Shown piece after piece: positions 27,016-36,293 of a DNA stretch of 64,000 bases. Within the stretch, counting starts at the first letter, position 1. Each line of letters starts with the position of its first letter. Location of the stretch: positions 1,248,001 to 1,312,000 of the forward strand of contig JBBCJC010000002.1 of the NCBI GenBank assembly GCA_037189525.1, read 5' to 3'. The stretch comes from Gemmatimonadales bacterium. Its GTDB lineage: Bacteria; Gemmatimonadota; Gemmatimonadetes; Gemmatimonadales; GWC2-71-9. The notes beneath the pieces are model-generated. The model was not told where the DNA came from. It did no database searches and saw only the letters and a program-made list of their open reading frames with translations. The position numbers and the translations under genes were made by a program.

Positions 27016-28470
27016 TCAGGCAGAGGTTGAGAACAGGTCGTGCACCGTCCAGGGAATCACGCGCTGTTCGAGGTTTCGCGCCACCTCGTGGAACGACTTC
27101 TTGAAAGGCGCCGCCGATACGAACAGGAGGAGCGCGTCCTTGGCCAGGGCGTCGCGGGCCCAGGTACGTCCACTATCCGCGAGTCGTCGGAGCGCGTCCA
27201 GATGCTCGAGCAGGACGGTGGCATCGGTCGAACGTCGCTGAAATTTGACCGAGCCGGTCATGACGCGGTCGTTCAGCAGCCGGGCGACGAGATCGATCTC
27301 GGTGTCCCGCCGATTACGATCCTGGCCTTCCCATCGGCCCCAGGCTTCTACGGCGGGGAGGTCCCTGGCTGCGCGATGGCGCCGATAGGCCTGCCGGACG
27401 ACGTCCTCGAACACCTCTTTGCCCACATAGGCCGGAAAGACCTGCTCCGCGAGGCGTTCCCGCCAGACGGTTTCGGCGCCGGCGCTCGCGATGGCGGACT
27501 CGTTAGGCAGGACGAGGCCGACGTGAAAGCGCAGCGCGGGATCGGCGATACGATAGCGCACGGTCTGATTTTGGGGTTCCTCGAAGTTGCGTTCCATCTC
27601 GAGGAAGCCCAGCTCGACCAACTGCGCCACCATCCGCCGCAAGCCGGTGTCGACCGCTTGACCGAGGGTCGCGGCCACCTGGCCGATGCTGCGCCGCTTG
27701 AGGCCGACGGCCGCGAGGATACCCTGATACTGGACGTGATCGCGCAGTCCCTCTTCCTGGCGCAGCACCGTTTCCAGCTGCAAACGAACTTCGCCGTGCT
27801 GGTCGAGCAGCAGGCGCACGATGTTCTCGGCCAGCGGTCGCCGATCGTCGACGGCTCGCAGGTATTTCGGCACACCGCCGAACGCAGCGTAAGTGCGAAT
27901 CTGATCGGCCGGGGTGTAGCCAGGCACCATCCGGCCCGCATCCCAATAGTCGAAGGGGTGGAGTTGCCGGGTCCAGTCGAGCCGTCCATAGAGGGGCGCA
28001 CCGCCGTCGGCCAATGCCTCCAGAGTCCGGACGGCAGATCCCGAAAGGACCAGCAGCACGCCTCCTTGCCGGTTCAGTCGGCCTTCCCAGGCGGCGTTGA
28101 GTTCGGAGGTCACCTCGACGAGGCCAGCCGCGTCGGTTGCCAGGTACTGCAGTTCGTCGATGATGGCGACGAGGTTGCGGTCGGGCGCGAGTTCCAGGAG
28201 TGTCCGGAAGACGGTTCGCCAGGTCGGGTGGTCGTCCGGGCGGAGATCCACGCCCGCCCATCGGCCGGCTTCCTCGATCAAGACCCGCCGATTGATTTCG
28301 GGTGATGTAGCCGACGCCGTGAAGTAAAAGGCCCGATCCGGCGGCCATGCGCTGGTGAGCAGAAAGGTTTTGCCCACTCGGCGGCGGCCGTACAGCAGGG
28401 CCAGTTTCCGGTGACCGGAATCCGCCAGTGCACGGAGCTCGGCTATTTCGGTTTCTCGGTCGATCAGCAT
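27016..28470 (-). CDS. ATPase_2/DUF234-type AAA ATPase with wHTH and a C-terminal restriction-fold-like domain
   Basis: IDRETE, YGRRRVGKT, IIDELQY, LSGS, PLYGR, GGVPKYL, YRIADP..RF, EIDLV. Confidence 0.85.
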   Translation of the reverse strand: MLIDRETEIAELRALADSGHRKLALLYGRRRVGKTFLLTSAWPPDRAFYFTASATSPEINRRVLIEEAGRWAGVDLRPDDHPTWRTVFRTLLELAPDRNLVAIIDELQYLATDAAGLVEVTSELNAAWEGRLNRQGGVLLVLSGSAVRTLEALADGGAPLYGRLDWTRQLHPFDYWDAGRMVPGYTPADQIRTYAAFGGVPKYLRAVDDRRPLAENIVRLLLDQHGEVRLQLETVLRQEEGLRDHVQYQGILAAVGLKRRSIGQVAATLGQAVDTGLRRMVAQLVELGFLEMERNFEEPQNQTVRYRIADPALRFHVGLVLPNESAIASAGAETVWRERLAEQVFPAYVGKEVFEDVVRQAYRRHRAARDLPAVEAWGRWEGQDRNRRDTEIDLVARLLNDRVMTGSVKFQRRSTDATVLLEHLDALRRLADSGRTWARDALAKDALLLFVSAAPFKKSFHEVARNLEQRVIPWTVHDLFSTSA

Positions 28471-28485
28471 ATCTCATCCATTGTT

Positions 28486-28549
28486 TACACATATATTTGT
28501 ATACTAACATATGTGTAGGCTATTATATTTGTATATAAACGTATGTGTA
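28486..28549. repeat. AT-rich direct and inverted repeat array upstream of the ATPase
   Basis: 26-bp direct repeats at 28492-28517 and 28524-28549 (23/26 identical); dyad TACACATAT-N14-ATATGTGTA at 28486-28517. Confidence 0.8.
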
Positions 28550-28632
28550 TGTAATGTCTTTGGCAAGGAACCAGCGCAGCCCTACGGGGCACGGCTATAC
28601 GGCTTTCCCTCGTCTGGCGGGTTGGTGTAGGG

Positions 28633-30252
28633 TTATGGCTGGGGTGCGAGTCTGGCCTGAGCGCGGGCTGCGGAGGCCTTGAACTCGGCTTGGTCGAGTG
28701 ACAGTCCTTGCTCGGCGATAGTGAGCGCTTCTCGGTACTGTCCGGTCGTCATCAGGCACTCGAACAGACGGCTTCTCATCGTAGTCTCTTGCGGATGCCG
28801 GTCGAGGCCGCGACGGAGGATCTCTTCCGCCCTCCGGCAATCGCCCGCGGCCCGGTGGAGCTGGCCCCATTCTTCGAACAGCCGGGGACTGCCCTCGTAC
28901 AGGGCGGCCGCGCGGGCATACATGCTGTCGGCTCGCGCCGGTTCTCCGCGCCGGCTGAGTTCGATCGCATACATCTGAAACCCTCGATAGCTTCGCGGGC
29001 CGTCGATGACCGTCTGTGCAAACGTCGTCGGGCTATCGCGCCAGACGGCCTGGCGGGAATGGCTTCGGGCCGCACCCAATCCGACCAGGAGGCAGGCCAG
29101 CCCGGCCAGTAGCGGCGTCGACCGCGGCAGACGAGTCGCCAGCCAGGTTGCTCCACCGGCCCCGGCCAGGACCGCGCCCACGCTGGGCAGAAACAGCGTG
29201 CGCTCGGCGATGATGATGCCGCTCGGGAAGAGCAGGTTCGAGACGGGCAGGAGGGTGATTCCGATCCAGGTCAGGCCGAGTGTGACGACCGGGGTCGCAT
29301 GGCGGGACCGCATGGCCAGGACGACGACGGCAACGAGCAGTACGCCGCCGAACAGGACTGGAACGATCGATTCGGGTATCGTCCCGTAGGCGGGCGGGCT
29401 GTACTGCGCCTCGAGATGCCGGGGCCAGATCAGCAGCCGGAGCCACTCCGGAACGATCGGCGTCATGACCCGAATGCGCTCGCCGAAGCTCAGGGTGTCG
29501 AGCCCCGCGGCGGCCGAGCCGGCGCCCAGTTTGCCGAGCACTGCGTAGCGACCGAGCAGGAGTGCGACGGCTGCGGCGAGCGTCATCGCCACGGTCGGGC
29601 CTGCGGCGCGAAGACGCGATGCGAAGGTAGCGGTTCGGCCGTCCGTCAGCTCGAGGAGCAGGATCAGGCCGGGCAGCACGAACCCCTGTTCTTTCGCGGT
29701 GGCGGCCAGGATGGTTAGCCCCGCCAAGGCCAGTCGTTGCGAGGTCGTCGGGAGGCTGCCTGACGCGCGAATCCGCAGGTAAGCGAGGCACGCCAGCAGG
29801 GCGAACAGGGTCATCCAGAGTTCGCCCTGCCCGACCAGATTGCCGGTGGCTTCCACATGAACCGGATGGACCGCAAAGAGCGCGGCCGCCATCAGAGCCG
29901 CCGGCCGAGGCAGCCGGTACGCGGCGAGGCGATAGACCGCGACAGTCACCACCACGGTGAGCAGGATGCTCACCAGGTGGAAGACCCAGGGCGCCCCACC
30001 CGCAGCCTGCCATTGCAGAGCGAACATCCAGATCGTCCACGGCCGATAGGCATCTCCGAGGTTCTGGGGAGGCCAATAGCTTTGCTGCGCATACTTCCAG
30101 GGCGCAGCCAGGGTGTGAACCTGGGTGTTTTCGAGGATGATCGGAACGTCGTCGAACGCGAAGCCGTTGAAGAGCGACCGGGCCGTTGCGAACAGAACAA
30201 GGCCGGCGAGGATGAGATAGATCCTGGGTTGCGACCAGGCGCTATCCGCCAT
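28633..30252 (-). CDS. TMTC-like GT-C membrane glycosyltransferase with C-terminal TPRs
   Basis: NGFAFDD..I.EN, YRP, FHLV, LFAVHPVHVEA, KEQG, AERTLFLPS, R..VWRD, then TPR-like helices. Confidence 0.8.
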   Translation of the reverse strand: MADSAWSQPRIYLILAGLVLFATARSLFNGFAFDDVPIILENTQVHTLAAPWKYAQQSYWPPQNLGDAYRPWTIWMFALQWQAAGGAPWVFHLVSILLTVVVTVAVYRLAAYRLPRPAALMAAALFAVHPVHVEATGNLVGQGELWMTLFALLACLAYLRIRASGSLPTTSQRLALAGLTILAATAKEQGFVLPGLILLLELTDGRTATFASRLRAAGPTVAMTLAAAVALLLGRYAVLGKLGAGSAAAGLDTLSFGERIRVMTPIVPEWLRLLIWPRHLEAQYSPPAYGTIPESIVPVLFGGVLLVAVVVLAMRSRHATPVVTLGLTWIGITLLPVSNLLFPSGIIIAERTLFLPSVGAVLAGAGGATWLATRLPRSTPLLAGLACLLVGLGAARSHSRQAVWRDSPTTFAQTVIDGPRSYRGFQMYAIELSRRGEPARADSMYARAAALYEGSPRLFEEWGQLHRAAGDCRRAEEILRRGLDRHPQETTMRSRLFECLMTTGQYREALTIAEQGLSLDQAEFKASAARAQARLAPQP

Positions 30253-31933
30253 TGGATCGACGGTCCATCGGGACCGTGAGCCGAACGGTTCCGGCAGGCG
30301 GCTTTGCGACGACGACGCTGTCCGCTATGCGGAGGAAGTGCCGGAAGGCGCGCGCCTGCGAGGCGCTGAGTGAGTAGGCCGCTCCTTCCCGCGCTTCGTC
30401 TCGCGCCTCCTGGTACCGGCCCAGATACAGCAGGCAGGCGATGAGGCTGGCGCGCCCGACGTCATGCTCCGGCTGGATCACGAGCGCTCGGCTATAGAGC
30501 GTCGCCGCTTCCTCACATTGGCCGGCAATCCGGAGTTTGTCGGCAAACTCGAATGACGCGCCCCATTGTTTCGGATAGAGTGCGACCGTGAGGCGGTACT
30601 CCTGCTCGGCCCACTCGTGTGCTCCGGCGTTGACCAGCAGCTGGGCCAGCGCATGATGGGCCCGGAACGACAGCGGAGCATCGATGGCCGTCTGATACCA
30701 CAGATTGAAGTGATTCTTCCAGACCAGATGTCGGCTAAGGCTCCGCGTCGTGCCCATCACGAGGACTGCACCCACGGCGATCAGGCTCGCAACCTGGATC
30801 GGCCTTTTTGCCCGGCGAAGCCACTCGATGGCCGGCGCTGCCAGGCCGCCAACCACGAGCATCATCCCGATGCTCGGGAGGAACAACGTGCGCTCGGCCA
30901 GCACGATGCCGGTGGGGACGAGCACGTTGCTCACCGGGAAGATGCCGATCGCCGTCCACATCAGGCCGAACGTCACAACCGGGAATCGCTTCCAGCAGAT
31001 CACGGCCAGCCCGAGCGCGAGGACGAGCAGCAGAGCGCCCTGGGTGTGCTCGGCGTCCCAGCTCAGGGCGGCCTCGATTTCCCGGGGTGAATAGTCGGCC
31101 TGGAGGTGGGCCGGCCACAGCAGCAGCCGGAACCAGTGGGGCACCACCGTGACCATCGTCATGGCCCGGCCACCCATCGTCAGGCCCTCGAGCGCCTCGG
31201 CAGTAAAAGTGCCGACCAAGTCGCCGCCCAGGGCGAAGGTCCGGATCGCAAAGAACATCGTGGCGCCGAGCAGCATCACCAGCACCAGGGGGCGGATCTC
31301 GCCCAGGCGGGCACGCAGCGGCCGGGGGTCGCGCACCAGGGTAAGCTCGGCGGCGACGATCAATCCGATGATGACGAGTCCGCTCTCTTTGAACAGCGTC
31401 GCCGCCAGATAGAGACTGAAGAGTGCCAGTCCGTCGACGAACCTGAGGCGGTGTTCCTGGCGGAGCCGGAGATAGAGAAGGATGGTCAGCGCTGCGAACC
31501 ATCCTACCACGAGCTCGGATTGGTTGACTGCGACAGCCACAGCCTCGACATGGACGGGGTGCACCATGAAAAAGGCCGCGACGAGCCAGGCGGCTCCGAA
31601 AGGCAATATGGTCTTTGCCAGGGCGAATACGGCCAGTCCTGCGGCGGCATACAGAAGGGTACTGACCACCCGGAACACCACCGGGCTGCCGTCGCCCAAC
31701 GCCCACTGCACCGCGAACCCGGTGGTGGCGAGCGGCCGATAGAGGGCCGGGGCAAACGGCTTCGGCCAATAGGATTCGGTAAAGAACGACGCGGGGTTCG
31801 CCAGCGTGTGAACCACGGGGTTTTCCCGGATGACCGCGATGTCGTCCTGGGCAAACTGGTTACCCATACCCGACAGGGTCGAAGCAAGGCACAGTCCGAT
31901 GAGGCCGATGACGGCCGTCGTATTCCGCGTCAT
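30242..31933 (-). CDS. TMTC-like GT-C membrane glycosyltransferase with C-terminal TPRs (paralogue)
   Basis: NQFAQDD..I.EN, YRPL, VHPVHVEAV, KESG, LQADYSP, AERTLFLPS, VWKN; start uncertain. Confidence 0.8.
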   Translation of the reverse strand: MTRNTTAVIGLIGLCLASTLSGMGNQFAQDDIAVIRENPVVHTLANPASFFTESYWPKPFAPALYRPLATTGFAVQWALGDGSPVVFRVVSTLLYAAAGLAVFALAKTILPFGAAWLVAAFFMVHPVHVEAVAVAVNQSELVVGWFAALTILLYLRLRQEHRLRFVDGLALFSLYLAATLFKESGLVIIGLIVAAELTLVRDPRPLRARLGEIRPLVLVMLLGATMFFAIRTFALGGDLVGTFTAEALEGLTMGGRAMTMVTVVPHWFRLLLWPAHLQADYSPREIEAALSWDAEHTQGALLLVLALGLAVICWKRFPVVTFGLMWTAIGIFPVSNVLVPTGIVLAERTLFLPSIGMMLVVGGLAAPAIEWLRRAKRPIQVASLIAVGAVLVMGTTRSLSRHLVWKNHFNLWYQTAIDAPLSFRAHHALAQLLVNAGAHEWAEQEYRLTVALYPKQWGASFEFADKLRIAGQCEEAATLYSRALVIQPEHDVGRASLIACLLYLGRYQEARDEAREGAAYSLSASQARAFRHFLRIADSVVVAKPPAGTVRLTVPMDRRSNGG

Positions 31934-32067
31934 AAGGAGAGCCAGTGATGCAAGAACCGGGGAATTGAGGGTTGGAGCCCGAAGCAGGGGGTCGGAGCTG
32001 GCCTTCGGTTGCAAAGTCCAATGGGAATCCGGTGACGAAACCCTGCAGTGAGTCGTGCAACGATATT

Positions 32068-32094
32068 GTAATGCGTTGGGAAACAACTGGTTAC
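32068..32094. promoter_or_regulatory. IHF-like site
   Basis: GTAATGCGTTGGGAAACAACTGGTTAC dyad containing AAACAA-N4-TTA (one mismatch to WATCAA-N4-TTR), just upstream of the sigma54 promoter. Confidence 0.45.
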
Positions 32095-32110
32095 GTTCGT
32101 TCTGATACCC

Positions 32111-32126
32111 TGGCACCAACGTTGCT
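32111..32126 (+). promoter_or_regulatory. sigma54 -24/-12 promoter of the pilin gene
   Basis: TGGCAC-CAACG-TTGCT, an exact match to TGGCAC-N5-TTGCW. Confidence 0.85.
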
Positions 32127-32197
32127 CTTTAGTTTGCCGGGACGAGCGACACCGCTTGGTTCAGGTAACCCCAAACTGTACCCCACTCGGAGGAAGT

Positions 32198-32581
32198 ATG
32201 TTCAATCGCAAGGGTTTCACGCTCATCGAGCTGCTGATCGTGGTTGTGATCATCGGCATCTTGGCCGCCATCGCAATTCCGAAGTTCGCGGCGACCAAAG
32301 ACAAGGCTAAGCTCGCCTCGGTTCGGACCGACCTCCGGAACGTCATGACGGCTCAGGAGGCGTACTTCTCGGATCACGCCACCTACGGCACGTTGGCCCA
32401 GCTGCAGGCCGCGAGCAACTTCACGCTCTCGTCCGGCAACACCGGCGGCGTCACGGGTGCGAGCAACGGCTACACCGCCACGTTCAACAACGCGACCATC
32501 AGCACTGGTATCGACGAGTGCACCGTGCAGGTCGGGGCCGGCGCGGCCAGCACGCTCGACGGCGTGATCGTCTGTTCGTAA
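32198..32581 (+). CDS. pilA: Type IV major pilin
   Basis: RKG|FTLIELLIVVVIIGILAAIAIPKF; GGAGG RBS; two C-terminal Cys. Confidence 0.92.
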   Translation: MFNRKGFTLIELLIVVVIIGILAAIAIPKFAATKDKAKLASVRTDLRNVMTAQEAYFSDHATYGTLAQLQAASNFTLSSGNTGGVTGASNGYTATFNNATISTGIDECTVQVGAGAASTLDGVIVCS

Positions 32582-32593
32582 GGCAGGTATGAC

Positions 32594-32633
32594 GAATCGG
32601 GCGTCCGCCGCACAATGTGGGGGGCGCCCGTTC
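32594..32633 (+). terminator. Hairpin between the pilin genes
   Basis: GAATCGGGCGTCCGCCGCACA-A-TGTGGGGGGCGCCCGTTC imperfect stem; weak U-tract. Confidence 0.55.
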
Positions 32634-32677
32634 TTCACCCACTGGTCACCATCGTCCAACAAGAAAGGAGGCAGGGT

Positions 32678-33064
32678 ATGCTGAGAACCAAACGATCCGG
32701 CTTTACTCTGATCGAACTCCTGATCGTCGTGGTGATCATCGGGATCCTGGCCGGGATTGCCATCCCGAAGTTTGCGGCGACGAAGGACAAATCCAGGCTG
32801 GCGTCGATCCGTTCCGATCTCCGGAACATCATGACGGCGCAGGAAGCCTACTGGGCGTCTCACTCGACCTTTGCGTCGCTCGGCGACTTGCAGGCGTCCA
32901 CCAACTACACGTTCTCGCAGGGAAACGTGGCGACGATTTCCGCCACGGTCTCTGGCTACACCGCGACGATTTCCAATAGCGCGATCACGTCGACGCTCGA
33001 CGAATGCTCCGTCCATGTCGGCGGCGGCGCGGGCACACTCGACAGTCAGATCGTCTGCTCCTAA
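32678..33064 (+). CDS. Second type IV pilin (tandem paralogue)
   Basis: RSG|FTLIELLIVVVIIGILAGIAIPKF; AAGGAGG RBS; colinear with the first pilin. Confidence 0.92.
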   Translation: MLRTKRSGFTLIELLIVVVIIGILAGIAIPKFAATKDKSRLASIRSDLRNIMTAQEAYWASHSTFASLGDLQASTNYTFSQGNVATISATVSGYTATISNSAITSTLDECSVHVGGGAGTLDSQIVCS

Positions 33065-33091: not shown

Positions 33092-34420
33092 ATGCGGGTA
33101 CTGCTGCTCGACGCCGACGAATCACTCAAGCACACCGTTGCTCCGTATCTCGAAGACGTCGGATATGAAGTCGCGTTTCGGCGGGATCCGGACGCCGCCC
33201 TCCTGGAAGCCCAGGCCTGCGGCATTCGGCTGATCCTCTGCGATCTGGCCCTTCCCGGCGATGGCGGCCTGACCTTTCTGCGGCGCTATCGGGCCGGCGG
33301 CGGCACCGGCGTCGTGCTGGTCTCGGGCGGGCCCGGCGAATCGGCCCTGGCAAGCGCGGCCCTGCGGGAAGGCGCGGATGGCTTCCTGCGCAAACCGTCG
33401 CTCCCCGAAGAGGTGCTCCTCGCGCTCCGGCAGACCGAAGAGCGCGACCGGCTCCGACACGAAGTGGCCACCCTGCGCGCCACGATCGGCTCCAAGGGCC
33501 TCGAGCCCATGGTCATCGCCGAGGACGCGCGGATGCGGTCGATTCTGGAGGTCGCTGCGCGGGCCGCGGCGTCGGATCAGGCCGTCCTGATTACGGGCGA
33601 GCGGGGCACCGGCAAAGCGCTGCTGGCGCGGGCGATGCACCGGTTCAGCCGTCGCGGAGACGGTGCCTTCGTCGCCATCGATTGTCCGTCTACGCCCGAT
33701 TTCTTCGGGACCGATGACGCCGGCCTCAACCCCGCCGATCCGCAGAGCGTCTGGCGCTCGGCGAGTCGCGGGACCTTGTTGCTCGAAGAAGTGGAAGGTC
33801 TGTCGCCCGAGAGTCAGCGATCCCTGGTGAGTCGGCTGGGCATCCGGAACGGCCGTAACGGACGCCCCACCGAGCTGGTGGTCGCGTCCGAGAGCGATGT
33901 TCGTCTGATGGCTACGGCCGAGAAGCGGCTCGATCGTCTGGTGCACGAAGGGCTGATCCAGGTCGACCTGGCCGAGCGGATCGGCACCACCACGCTGGAC
34001 ATTCCGGCGCTGCGCGAGCGTCGCGACGACATCCCCGCGCTGGTGACTCACTTCCTGCAGCAGGTTGCGGCCAAGACCGGTCGCCCGATCAGCATCACGC
34101 CCCAGGCCATGGCGGCCCTGGTGTCGTACTCGTGGCCCGGCAATGTCCGGGAGCTCAGGCAGGTGGTCGAACGCGCCGCCGTACTGAGCAGCACGGGCAA
34201 GCTCGATCGGTCGGATTTCCCCGTGCTCGTGAGTACCGGCTCCTCAACCCGCACCGGCGGCACCGAACTGCCCCTCAAGGAGCAGGTCGAAGCGTTCGAA
34301 CGCGAGGTCATTCTCCGGGCCCTGGCCGCTTGTGGCGGGACTCGGCGGGAGGCCGCCAAGATGCTCCAGCTCAGCTTGCGGACCCTGTTCTACAAGCTCA
34401 ATCGGTACGGGCTCGCCTGA
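33092..34420 (+). CDS. NtrC/PilR-like response regulator (REC-AAA-HTH), degenerate
   Basis: REC (LILCDLALP), GERGTGK, PALRERRDDIP, YSWPGNVRELR, Fis HTH; no GAFTGA. Confidence 0.88.
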   Translation: MRVLLLDADESLKHTVAPYLEDVGYEVAFRRDPDAALLEAQACGIRLILCDLALPGDGGLTFLRRYRAGGGTGVVLVSGGPGESALASAALREGADGFLRKPSLPEEVLLALRQTEERDRLRHEVATLRATIGSKGLEPMVIAEDARMRSILEVAARAAASDQAVLITGERGTGKALLARAMHRFSRRGDGAFVAIDCPSTPDFFGTDDAGLNPADPQSVWRSASRGTLLLEEVEGLSPESQRSLVSRLGIRNGRNGRPTELVVASESDVRLMATAEKRLDRLVHEGLIQVDLAERIGTTTLDIPALRERRDDIPALVTHFLQQVAAKTGRPISITPQAMAALVSYSWPGNVRELRQVVERAAVLSSTGKLDRSDFPVLVSTGSSTRTGGTELPLKEQVEAFEREVILRALAACGGTRREAAKMLQLSLRTLFYKLNRYGLA

Positions 34421-34504: not shown

Positions 34505-34873
34505 ATGTCCAAGACGCGCGCAGGGTTCAGCCTCCTCGAAGTGATGACCGCGGTCGCGATGCTCGCCATCGCATCGATCGTGGCGCTCAAAGCATCGGTC
34601 CAAACCGGCCATGCCGTCGCGATCGGCCGGCGCTGGACCGCCATGGCGCGAGCCGTCGACGCCGAGGTGGTTCGGCTGGAGCGCGCCTACCGGATGGCGC
34701 GGCCGAACTGTGTCACGCCTCCCTCCGGTTCCGATTACACGCCCGATGGTGTCGGCCTCGCCTGGTCGGTACGGGGTGACTCGGCGCTGATCGAACTGAC
34801 CATCGAAGCGCGCGCTCGAGCAGCGGGGCGGGTTCTCATCGATACCGCACGTACGACCCTGAGTTGCCGATGA
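34505..34873 (+). CDS. Minor pilin (PilV-like)
   Basis: RAG|FSLLEVMTAVAML class III signal. Confidence 0.75.
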   Translation: MSKTRAGFSLLEVMTAVAMLAIASIVALKASVQTGHAVAIGRRWTAMARAVDAEVVRLERAYRMARPNCVTPPSGSDYTPDGVGLAWSVRGDSALIELTIEARARAAGRVLIDTARTTLSCR

Positions 34874-35700
34874 CCATGAGACGCGGCGTGACGCTGATCG
34901 AGCTCCTCGTGGCGGTGGTCGTCGCGATGGTGCTGCTGACCATGGCAATTCGGGTGCAGGCGACCGTCGAGCGGACCGGGCGGAGCCGGCTGGAACGTCT
35001 CGGAGCCACCGCCTCACTGCGTGCGGCGGCGAAACTGGTCCGTTGGGAGTGGGCCGGTTTCGGATTCGACTCGATGGCCGGCGCTGACTTTGCCGTGACC
35101 GGGGCAGGGCGGGTCAGCTATCGCGGTCAATCCGGTTTGCTGGCCGTCTGTCACGTGAGTGGAGATACGCTGTTCGTCGACCCTGCGCGTCTCGCGGCCT
35201 GGCGGCACCGCCTTCCCATTGCCGGCCGCGACAGTCTCCTCGTGTACCTCCCGGGCGATTCGGCGATCGGAATCGATGCCTGGCTACCGGCGTCGGTGGT
35301 CTCCGGCCCCGACCCTGGTGTCTGCCCGGGAGGCATTGCGGGTATCCGTTATCGGGTTGCCTGGACGGCGTATGCCGGTCCCGTTGCGGAGCAAACGGTC
35401 GCCCGAAGCTACGAGCCGCTCGAGTTGCGCGCCTACAACTCGGCCGGGTCCTGGCAGCTCGGCCAGGTCGGATTGGCGTCGGGAGGTGTGGTGCAGCCGG
35501 CGCTCGGACCGCTGGCGGCCGGCGGATTCGAGATCCTCCCGGTTAACGGAGCCGGCGTCGTCACCGGTGCAACCGGGGCTACGGGGCTCGAAATTCGGCT
35601 CAGGATGCTCACCGGTCGAGAGACCGCCGTCGGTCCCGGTCGGGTGCCTCGCATGGAGGACAGTCTCGGTTTTCGGATGCGGTTGGAGAACGTTCCATGA
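34870..35700 (+). CDS. Minor pilin (PilW-like)
   Basis: RRG|VTLIELLVAVVV; ATGA overlap with the upstream gene; ends MRLEN. Confidence 0.75.
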   Translation: MTMRRGVTLIELLVAVVVAMVLLTMAIRVQATVERTGRSRLERLGATASLRAAAKLVRWEWAGFGFDSMAGADFAVTGAGRVSYRGQSGLLAVCHVSGDTLFVDPARLAAWRHRLPIAGRDSLLVYLPGDSAIGIDAWLPASVVSGPDPGVCPGGIAGIRYRVAWTAYAGPVAEQTVARSYEPLELRAYNSAGSWQLGQVGLASGGVVQPALGPLAAGGFEILPVNGAGVVTGATGATGLEIRLRMLTGRETAVGPGRVPRMEDSLGFRMRLENVP

Positions 35701-36128
35701 TCGTCGTTGCGCTTTCGTTGCTGGCAGGTCTGGCCCTCGTCGTCGGAATCGGGGCGCCGGCTGCATCCGCCGAGCTCCGGGCCGGCAGGATGGCGTTTAC
35801 GGAGCTGGTCGTTCGCCAGGCGGCCGAGGGTGAGTTGGCGCGGTGGTTCGAGGGGGATTGGGCCGCAGCGGCTCCGGCGATGTTACCGGGAGAAGGGCAG
35901 TCGTTTCCGAGTGATTCGGTCGATGCGCGGACGGTGGTCGAACGCCGGCTCGTTCGGGTGTCGCCGACGCTCTGGATGCTGCAGGTTCGGGTGGTTGAGC
36001 GCGACCTGACCGCGCGAGATCTTGCAGCGAGTTACCAGGCCCTCCTGGTCGGGCTCCGGCGGGAGGCCGGCGATTCGGTTCTCACCCGGTATCGAATTGC
36101 CCGTCCCTGGGTCCAGGCGCACCAATAG
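35697..36128 (+). CDS. PilX-like hypothetical protein
   Basis: Hydrophobic N-terminus, AAEG motif, ATGA overlap, position after the PilW-like gene. Confidence 0.55.
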   Translation: MIVVALSLLAGLALVVGIGAPAASAELRAGRMAFTELVVRQAAEGELARWFEGDWAAAAPAMLPGEGQSFPSDSVDARTVVERRLVRVSPTLWMLQVRVVERDLTARDLAASYQALLVGLRREAGDSVLTRYRIARPWVQAHQ

Positions 36129-36277: not shown

Positions 36278-36293
36278 TGGCATAACGGTTGCC
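36278..36293 (+). promoter_or_regulatory. Putative sigma54 promoter upstream of pilM
   Basis: TGGCAT-AACGG-TTGCC (GG-N10-GC spacing). Confidence 0.6.

What the first reader, a model, noticed from the sequence alone, without database searches (positions are those of the whole stretch)
28633..33064. Tandem TMTC-like GT-C glycosyltransferases back-to-back with two Ser/Thr-rich pilins: candidate new pilin glycosylation system
Seen: two overlapping paralogues with the TMTC signature series (F-x-x-DD-x-x-x-I-x-x-N, YRP, HPxHxEA, KE, AERxxxLPS, W, then TPRs) share a spacer of about 260 bp with two pilin genes. By hand count the mature pilins are about 20% (24/121) and 24% (29/120) Ser+Thr. Both end in Cys-Ser and keep an N-[FY]-T sequon. 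Known: metazoan TMTC1-4 O-mannosylate cadherin beta-strands using a lipid-phosphate-mannose donor and need the DD pair. The pilin glycosylation enzymes I know of are PglL/TfpO oligosaccharyltransferases and TfpW, not TMTC-type. Inference: these two enzymes transfer sugars from a polyprenol-phosphate donor onto pilin, with the TPRs selecting the substrate, giving bacterial TMTC homologues a substrate.
Basis: partly seen in the sequence, partly recalled or inferred. Interest (0 to 1): 0.85.

Follow-up and report, generated by a model that had tools for sequence, protein, structure and literature searches.

The report
TfpW-family pilin glycosyltransferase pair
Two neighbouring genes beside the pilus-subunit genes of this Gemmatimonadota bacterium encode membrane enzymes with a predicted sugar-transferase fold that likely coat the pilus subunits with sugar; they belong to the same protein family as the known Pseudomonas pilin glycosylase TfpW, so this is an untested variant of a known design, not a new kind of system.

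Summary
Two paralogues (38% identical; GT-C membrane domain plus TPRs) lie back-to-back with two type IV pilins and are the genome's only family members. The AlphaFold model is GT-C (AglB Z 21, ArnT 19.8, Pmt 19.4). In 59 of 100 Gemmatimonadota loci the gene lies within 600 bp of a pilin (background under 1%). A Dpm1-like GT2, the candidate donor synthase, sits in the cassette in 40 of those 59; here it lies about 70 kb away with pilSR.

The novelty claim fails. TfpW itself has the DD motif, 11 helices and TPRs. A TfpW orthologue scores 88 bits on our profile (shuffles at most 3.4; HHalign 99.9%) and shares the motif series, so TfpW is TMTC-type and bacterial TMTC-like proteins already have a pilin substrate. 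Ser/Thr richness is only slightly above controls; the sequon and C-terminal Ser are not conserved. Sugar, sites and activity are untested. A complex prediction with pilin gave weak support only (0.41, best control 0.00).

Verdict: a likely pilin O-glycosylation cassette, a new variant of the TfpW kind. The scan noted this design before in at least 11 other genomes.

The parts
28633..30252 (-). gtA: GT-C/TPR glycosyltransferase, 539 aa, DD at D34-D35; Gln in place of the Asp of TMTC motif M5 (QY)
   Evidence: Pfam PMT_2 26.7 bits (cut-off 26.1), TPR_14 and TPR_19; motif columns
30242..31933 (-). gtB: GT-C/TPR glycosyltransferase, 563 aa, DD at D30-D31, DY at motif M5
   Evidence: AlphaFold pLDDT 93.4, pTM 0.91; GT-C fold matches; weak DUF1736 match E 0.021, below cut-off
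30148..30153 (-). gtA DD codons (predicted catalytic pair, first periplasmic loop)
   Evidence: sequence; D in 170 and 166 of 171 Gemmatimonadota homologues
31841..31846 (-). gtB DD codons (predicted catalytic pair)
   Evidence: invariant in alignment A1
31934..32197 (.). 264-nt divergent spacer between gtB and pilA1
32111..32125 (+). sigma-54-type -24/-12 box, likely the pilA promoter
   Evidence: only exact match in the window to the recalled consensus; exact in 8 of 13 related spacers
32198..32581 (+). pilA1: type IVa pilin, 121 aa mature, Cys102-Cys120; likely major pilin and proposed acceptor
   Evidence: N_methyl and TIGR02532; closest solved pilins are Geobacter and Myxococcus-type PilA
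32678..33064 (+). pilA2: second type IVa pilin, 120 aa mature, 64% identical to pilA1; proposed acceptor
33092..34420 (+). NtrC-like regulator without GAFTGA, then minor pilins (34505-36128) and pilMNOPQ: places the pair in the main type IV pilus locus
   Evidence: the pilM-Q names are read from the translations and are recalled

Best explanation
gtA and gtB are GT-C/TPR membrane proteins of the TfpW/TMTC-like family that likely transfer sugar from a polyprenol-phosphate-sugar donor onto Ser/Thr residues of the PilA heads on the periplasmic side of the inner membrane. Shown: fold, motifs, homology to a TfpW orthologue, conserved linkage to pilA, and co-clustering with a Dpm1-like GT2. Inferred: (1) the GT2 at G000:C2:1205695-1206414 loads a sugar onto the lipid carrier; (2) the DD pair acts as in other GT-C enzymes; (3) the TPRs hold the folded pilin head; (4) several Ser/Thr are modified before assembly, with conserved hydroxyl columns such as S72, T45, T76, T87 and T89 as candidates; (5) the sugar is probably not D-arabinofuranose, as no DprE1-like or GtrA gene was found; (6) the benefit is probably phage shielding or pilin stability, as for TfpW.
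For: GT-C fold: AglB Z 21.0 (rmsd 4.5, 335 aligned), STT3 20.1, ArnT 19.8, Pmt 19.4. Only two family members in a 98% complete genome, both beside pilA. 59 of 100 loci, in 56 of 70 genomes, lie within 600 bp of a pilin, in two orientations (47 co-oriented upstream, 11 divergent, 1 downstream). A GT2 lies in 40 of 59 pilin-adjacent vs 8 of 41 other loci, and its 66-79% identical orthologue is in G000; it is contiguous with the pair in 7 of 15 same-genus regions. TfpW orthologue: 88.2 bits on profile A2 vs at most 3.4 for 200 shuffles; its top hit among 42,080 ORFs of G000 is gtA, E 1.9e-8; HHalign 99.92%, E 5.4e-35, 352 columns. TfpW modifies multiple pilin Ser/Thr and needs its DDX motif. Complex gtB + pilA1: 0.41 vs best control 0.00, 'weak support'; runs agree in at least 78% of contacts, partner pLDDT at least 76; the mark was reached by 116 of 157 solved and 2 of 215 mismatched pairs, but at 0.60 or under by only 18 of 157 solved and both passing mismatches.
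Against: No activity, mass spectrometry or mutant data. 41 of 100 loci are not pilin-adjacent (10 of these are cut by a contig end within 1 kb). The family is huge (98,999 clusters at E 1e-10), and 24 of 30 Pseudomonadales loci found with TfpW show no pilin within 1.5 kb, so membership does not fix the substrate. In G000 the donor candidate is about 70 kb away. Ser/Thr excess is small, and absent in Pseudomonadales (0.20-0.26 for 6 GT-adjacent pilins vs median 0.22 for 68 others). gtA lacks the M5 Asp that TMTC models use as a metal ligand.
Confidence: 0.72

Rival explanations
1. The pair is a general periplasmic or surface protein O-glycosylation system; pilin is at most one of many clients and the linkage reflects history or shared regulation.
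For: 41 of 100 loci are not pilin-adjacent, some beside guaA, urocanase or ribosomal genes; very large family; TMTCs serve many cadherins.
Against: Both copies in G000 sit at pilA; adjacency is kept through a change of orientation and across orders; pilin-adjacent clades also occur in Gammaproteobacteria.
Confidence: 0.13
2. The acceptor is a lipid or polysaccharide (ArnT-like, for example lipid A or a surface glycan), not a protein.
For: ArnT is among the tied best fold matches (Z 19.8); GT2, methyltransferase and other GT-C genes in the cassette could build a glycan.
Against: A periplasmic TPR tail is shared with protein-acting TfpW, TMTC and TMEM260; sequence homology is to TfpW; pilA linkage.
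Confidence: 0.06
3. The enzymes N-glycosylate the N68 sequon, like AglB or PglB.
For: Both pilins carry N68-x-T; AglB and STT3 are top fold matches, tied with ArnT and close to Pmt.
Against: A sequon in that region occurs in 27 of 85 related pilins; any sequon in 71% vs 62% of controls; the homologues TfpW and TMTC are O-linking.
Confidence: 0.04
4. Only gtB is catalytic; gtA, or both, act as non-catalytic pilin chaperones or assembly factors.
For: Gln replaces the M5 Asp in 15 of 171 rows, all gtA and its same-genus orthologues; non-catalytic pilin accessory proteins such as TfpY exist.
Against: gtA keeps DD, RP, HPxHxE, KE and ER; the TfpW orthologue also shows no Asp in that column, though the alignment there is uncertain.
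Confidence: 0.05

Closest known systems
TfpW of Pseudomonas aeruginosa group IV / P. paraeruginosa (Pa5196, PA7), pilin D-arabinofuranosyltransferase
   Same: GT-C with DD in loop 1, about 11 helices, C-terminal periplasmic TPRs, encoded next to pilA. Homologous over 352 columns; TfpW's YX6PFX7P motif aligns with W267-x6-P274-x8-P283 of gtB. Shared DD, RP, HP, E130, KE, P274 and ER columns.
   Different: Separate subfamily on a quick tree, about 18% profile identity. Two paralogues, divergent from pilA, against one gene downstream. No tfpX beside it; no DprE1-like (PF04030) or GtrA gene found in G000. A Dpm1-like GT2 travels with it instead, so the sugar probably differs.
Metazoan TMTC1-4 (CAZy GT105) cadherin O-mannosyltransferases
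   Same: 11-helix GT-C plus TPR architecture; DD, YRP, KE and ER motifs (PMC7801869 Table 4); 12 of 51 family members match DUF1736 at E 0.05 or better, best 2.2e-11; Atlas hit to a eukaryotic DUF1736 cluster, 0.91. PMC7801869 already notes uncharacterised full-length prokaryotic homologues.
   Different: SHKS of M2 is missing, RxD is QxE, DW is DY or QY, ERxxY is ERxxF; both window proteins fall below the DUF1736 cut-off; fewer TPRs (recalled); donor and acceptor unproven.
TfpO/PilO, PglL and TfpM O-oligosaccharyltransferases
   Same: Pilin O-glycosylation from a lipid-linked donor; tfpO lies next to pilA.
   Different: Described as unrelated to TfpW; they transfer pre-built oligosaccharides. 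No Wzy_C match in these proteins; G000's two Wzy_C genes lie elsewhere. TfpM is recalled.

Membership tests
GT-C superfamily | Multi-helix membrane fold of PglB/AglB/ArnT/Pmt type | tested here: met
   gtB model pLDDT 93.4; Z 21.0-18.0 to seven GT-C chains over 318-355 residues. gtA was not modelled; it is 38% identical.
GT-C superfamily | Acidic DD/DE pair in the loop after helix 1 | tested here: met
   D34-D35 and D30-D31; 170/171 and 166/171 conserved.
TfpW-like pilin glycosyltransferases | Sequence homology to TfpW over the membrane domain | tested here: met
The named PA7/Pa5196 record itself was not available.
TfpW-like pilin glycosyltransferases | C-terminal periplasmic TPR domain | tested here: met
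   Pfam TPR matches; helical hairpins 408-543 in the model. Periplasmic side is inferred.
TfpW-like pilin glycosyltransferases | Encoded next to pilA | tested here: met
   264 nt from pilA1, though divergent and not downstream; 59 of 100 related loci.
TfpW (strict orthologue) | Literal YX6PFX7P motif | tested here: not met
   gtB has W-x6-P-A-x7-P and gtA W-x6-P-R-x7-P: same register, different letters.
TfpW (strict orthologue) | D-Araf donor pathway (DprE1, DprE2, GtrA) in the genome | tested here: not met
   No PF04030 or PF04138 match in G000, 98.1% complete; the same PF04030 search found DprE1 in G194, but only weakly, E 1.8e-4, so a divergent copy could be missed.
TfpW-like pilin glycosyltransferases | DD-dependent O-glycosylation of pilin Ser/Thr | not testable with these tools
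   Needs mass spectrometry and mutants.
TMTC / GT105 | DUF1736 (PF08409) above the curated cut-off | tested here: inconclusive
   gtB 15.2 bits vs cut-off 27, gtA no match; 12 of 51 relatives match, best E 2.2e-11.
TMTC / GT105 | Motifs M1 DD, YRP of M2, KE of M4, ER of M7 | tested here: met
TMTC / GT105 | Full motifs M2 SHKSYRP, M3 RxD, M5 DW, M6 PxxP, M7 ERxxY | tested here: not met
   No SHKS; QxE; DY (gtB) or QY (gtA); one Pro; ERxxF. Matched by motif order; no metazoan TMTC sequence was aligned.
TMTC / GT105 | Mannose transfer from Dol-P-Man to cadherin beta-strands | not testable with these tools
   Sugar unknown. The linked GT2 matches ArnC (E 1.5e-14) and Dpm synthase (5.5e-14) about equally.

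The most novel reading that the evidence does not exclude
A two-enzyme, TMTC-style pilin glycosylation line: gtB (canonical DY) primes beta-strand Ser/Thr of the folded pilin head with a non-arabinose sugar from the Dpm1-like GT2, while gtA (conserved D-to-Q) extends the glycan or serves the second pilin, with the linked methyltransferase and a third GT-C finishing it. With TfpW shown to be a TMTC-family protein, this would make pilin glycosylation a bacterial model for fold-selective TMTC chemistry.
Probability: 0.2. Interest if true: 0.65.

Novelty: new variant of a known kind. Interest (0 to 1): 0.36.

Why it matters
If true, pilin glycosylation of the TfpW type is common in Gemmatimonadota (family found in 82 of 151 genomes) and runs on a different donor, which bears on phage-host contact in a poorly studied phylum. 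The more useful by-product is the homology: TfpW, a tested bacterial enzyme, belongs to the family of TMTC-like proteins, for which no solved structure turned up in sequence or fold searches. Small bacterial members with a defined pilin acceptor could be tractable models for TMTC mechanism. It is not a new kind of system.

Tried and rejected
Single-sequence fold of the TfpW orthologue failed (pLDDT 42.7) and was not used. RNA runs: small shares, contigs only; near-identical pieces cover pilA1, cover of the GT genes is patchy, so nothing is concluded on expression. No match for the gtB membrane domain in plasmids. PDB sequence searches found only TPR matches or nothing; no TMTC chain appeared in the fold lists, which is inconclusive. 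NCBIfam has no match for TfpW or these proteins beyond TPRs. Azotobacter beijerinckii DSM 378, a species reported to have a TfpW homologue, gave no match with profiles A2 or A3; strain difference or sensitivity, unresolved. Kus 2008 and Harvey 2011 are not held; they are cited through the 2020 preprint. tfpW primers could not be read. The careful tree did not finish: only the quick tree, backbone unresolved, so no claim on orthology or on single versus repeated recruitment to pilA. All-frame clustering of neighbours was noisy and was replaced by gene calling on 20 of 100 loci (80 of their proteins scanned). Rejected as evidence: sequon, Cys-Ser end, and largely the Ser/Thr count. Sigma-70 promoter scan: none.
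Full report
1. Observation. gtA (30252-28633, minus, 539 aa) and gtB (31933-30242, minus, 563 aa) overlap by 11 nt, are 38% identical, and lie 264 nt from pilA1 (32198-32581), followed by pilA2 (32678-33064). Named homologues are from Gemmatimonadota. Downstream lie an NtrC-like regulator, three minor pilin-like genes and the pilM-Q genes (pilM-Q names recalled). A sigma-54 box (recalled consensus) at 32111-32125 is the only exact match in the window and is exact in 8 of 13 related spacers, which fits pilA1 being the major pilin.

2. Fold and family. The gtB model (50-row alignment, pLDDT 93.4, pTM 0.91) matches AglB (Z 21.0, rmsd 4.5, 335 aligned), STT3 (20.1), ArnT (19.8) and Pmt1-Pmt2 (19.4) among 48,161 chains, plus TPR chains for residues about 408-545; Foldseek gave weaker but concordant hits. 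Pfam: gtA PMT_2 just over cut-off, gtB DUF1736 below cut-off; 12 of 51 family members match DUF1736 at E 0.05 or better. The Atlas lists a eukaryotic DUF1736 cluster at 0.91, rank 29 of 30. Against the seven TMTC motifs of PMC7801869 (abstract and passages seen), DD, YRP, KE and ER are kept, while SHKS, RxD, DW, PxxP and the final Tyr differ (171 Gemmatimonadota rows). So these are TMTC-like, not demonstrably GT105 mannosyltransferases. That paper already notes uncharacterised full-length prokaryotic homologues. The family profile finds 98,999 clusters at E 1e-10 among 1.84 billion representatives.

3. Linkage. gtA and gtB are the only members in G000, 98.1% complete. All 21 same-genus genomes have a match. 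In a phylum sample, 82 of 151 genomes match. From the 150 listed matches (28 more were not listed) I fetched 100 of 103 distinct non-G000 loci with 4 kb flanks, leaving out G005, G009 and G139:C144. In 59 of 100 loci (56 of 70 genomes) a pilin lies within 600 bp: 47 co-oriented with the GT upstream, 11 divergent as here, 1 downstream. Of the 41 others, 10 are cut by a contig end within 1 kb. The upper-bound chance level from G000's 12 motif-bearing ORFs is 0.8%. Kin are not independent, so these counts show conservation, not 59 separate events.

4. Donor. A GT2 lies within the fetched flank in 40 of 59 pilin-adjacent and 8 of 41 other loci; the common short type has a 66-79% identical orthologue in G000 at C2:1205695-1206414, in a pilS-pilR-methyltransferase-GT2-(664-aa membrane protein) block about 70 kb from gtA and outside the window. 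In 7 of 15 same-genus regions, and in G023, this block directly abuts the gtA/gtB-pilA unit; in G000 and five others GlnRS lies next to gtA instead. The GT2 resembles ArnC and Dol-P-Man synthase about equally, so it is a likely polyprenol-phosphate sugar synthase of unknown sugar. No GtrA or DprE1-like gene was found in G000.

5. TfpW. The 2020 preprint (whole text read, figures and tables not held) describes TfpW as a 646-aa GT-C with a DDX motif needed for pilin glycosylation, 11 predicted helices, a YX6PFX7P motif and a periplasmic TPR domain, encoded just after pilA, adding D-Araf to several Ser/Thr. A published pilB primer gave 120 Gammaproteobacterial loci, 80 with flanks; the Gemmatimonadota profile found a pilA-side homologue in 7 of them. 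A search of 34 Pseudomonas genomes then gave G194, whose gene lies between pilA and a TfpX/TfpZ-family gene (173.8 bits, cut-off 200, cut by the locus end), carries YX6PFX7P literally, has 11 hydrophobic segments, and shares the genome with a GtrA-DprE1-DprE2 cluster. It scores 88.2 bits on the profile, against at most 3.4 for 200 shuffles and -6.7 reversed. Reciprocally its best hit among 42,080 G000 ORFs is gtA (E 1.9e-8), with gtB second at E 0.81. A profile of 8 TfpW-clade proteins aligns to ours at 99.92%, E 5.4e-35, over 352 columns, placing YX6PFX7P on gtB's W267-P274-P283 in the DUF1736 loop. TfpW even keeps TMTC's RxD. A quick tree of 58 rows puts the TfpW clade, a Gammaproteobacterial 'EHRNY' clade and the Gemmatimonadota clade apart on an unresolved backbone.

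6. Pilins. Head-domain Ser/Thr is 0.24 and 0.29 here; median 0.25 for 85 pilins in GT loci vs 0.20 for 13 pilins of 6 genomes without a gtB-query match (5 rechecked with the profile: 4 none, 1 weak partial hit). The ranges overlap, and in Pseudomonadales there is no clear difference. The sequon type and terminal Ser are not conserved (8 and 10 of 85). Column S72 is Ser/Thr in all 60 aligned pilins, which may be structural. A gtB + pilA1 complex scored 0.41 against a best control of 0.00, 'weak support'; runs agree in at least 78% of contacts, partner pLDDT at least 76; the mark was reached by 116 of 157 solved and 2 of 215 mismatched pairs, but at 0.60 or under by only 18 of 157 solved and both passing mismatches. 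It moves my odds little.

7. Mechanism. Most likely (0.72): the GT2 makes a polyprenol-phosphate sugar; gtA and gtB, with DD loop and TPRs in the periplasm, transfer it to Ser/Thr of membrane-held pilin before assembly; the coat would shield against pilus phages or stabilise the pilin, as shown for TfpW (passages of 10.1101/150227 and PMC12369383). All chemistry is inferred. Rivals: general protein glycosylation (0.13), lipid or glycan acceptor (0.06), a non-catalytic role (0.05), N-linkage (0.04). The conserved Gln of gtA at motif M5 (15 of 171 rows, all gtA-type) hints that the paralogues differ.

8. Novelty. Paper searches: TMTC + pilin + bacterial, 0 papers; TMTC + bacterial homolog + tetratricopeptide + glycosyltransferase, 0; pilA + protein mannosyltransferase + tetratricopeptide + glycosylation, 0; Gemmatimonad + pilin + glycosyl, 6 listings, none on this topic by title and abstract start; TfpW + pilin, 14. 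So neither this cassette nor the TfpW-TMTC homology turned up in the open library; subscription papers, CAZy and bioRxiv supplements were not seen. Passages only were read of PMC11292533, PMC6801728, PMC10214176, PMC11841053, PMC11846832 and PMC2841157. The scan's own notes list 11 like findings in other genomes (8 shown), all filed near TfpW; my TfpW reading was stated before that look-up and was tested here. Verdict: real feature, likely pilin O-glycosylation, new variant of a known kind, interest 0.36.

Noticed in passing
window 33092-34420 (+): The NtrC-like regulator after pilA2 lacks GAFTGA, while the PilR-like gene at G000:C2:1203592-1204974 has GSFTGA; it is conserved beside pilA in the genus.
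   Followed up: partly
G000:C2:1201832-1208405 (L332:7833-14406): pilS-pilR-methyltransferase-Dpm1-like GT2-664-aa membrane protein block, contiguous with the GT-pilA unit in several relatives but about 70 kb away here; the 664-aa protein has no Pfam match and relatives match PMT_2, so it may be a third GT-C.
   Followed up: partly
window 36278-36292 (+): Second sigma-54-like box (1 mismatch) about 200 nt upstream of pilM; one-mismatch hits are at chance level in the window.
   Followed up: no
window 27016-28560: DUF234-type ATPase gene with an AT-rich leader directly after gtA; not found by tblastn in 16 related regions, so possibly a recent insertion.
   Followed up: partly
L317:3279-4190, L318:1368-2279: In two Pseudomonas genomes the pilA-adjacent GT-C/TPR gene ('EHRNY' type) is followed directly by a GT2 that looks Dpm1-like by eye, the same pairing as in Gemmatimonadota.
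   Followed up: no
L146:6956-8443, L117:5808-7289, L110:6402-7964: A further 500-aa membrane protein family without a Pfam match (with other GT-C-like neighbours, in 37 of 59 pilin-adjacent loci) travels with the cassette; no blastp match in G000.
   Followed up: partly
L315 (G211:C7:184975-186175): The pilA-adjacent GT-C gene of this Pseudomonas genome is split into two frames near its start; frameshift or assembly error.
   Followed up: no
G031, G035 (L175-L177, L180-L182): Genomes without this GT family carry many near-identical dispersed pilA copies (13 and 8 matches).
   Followed up: no
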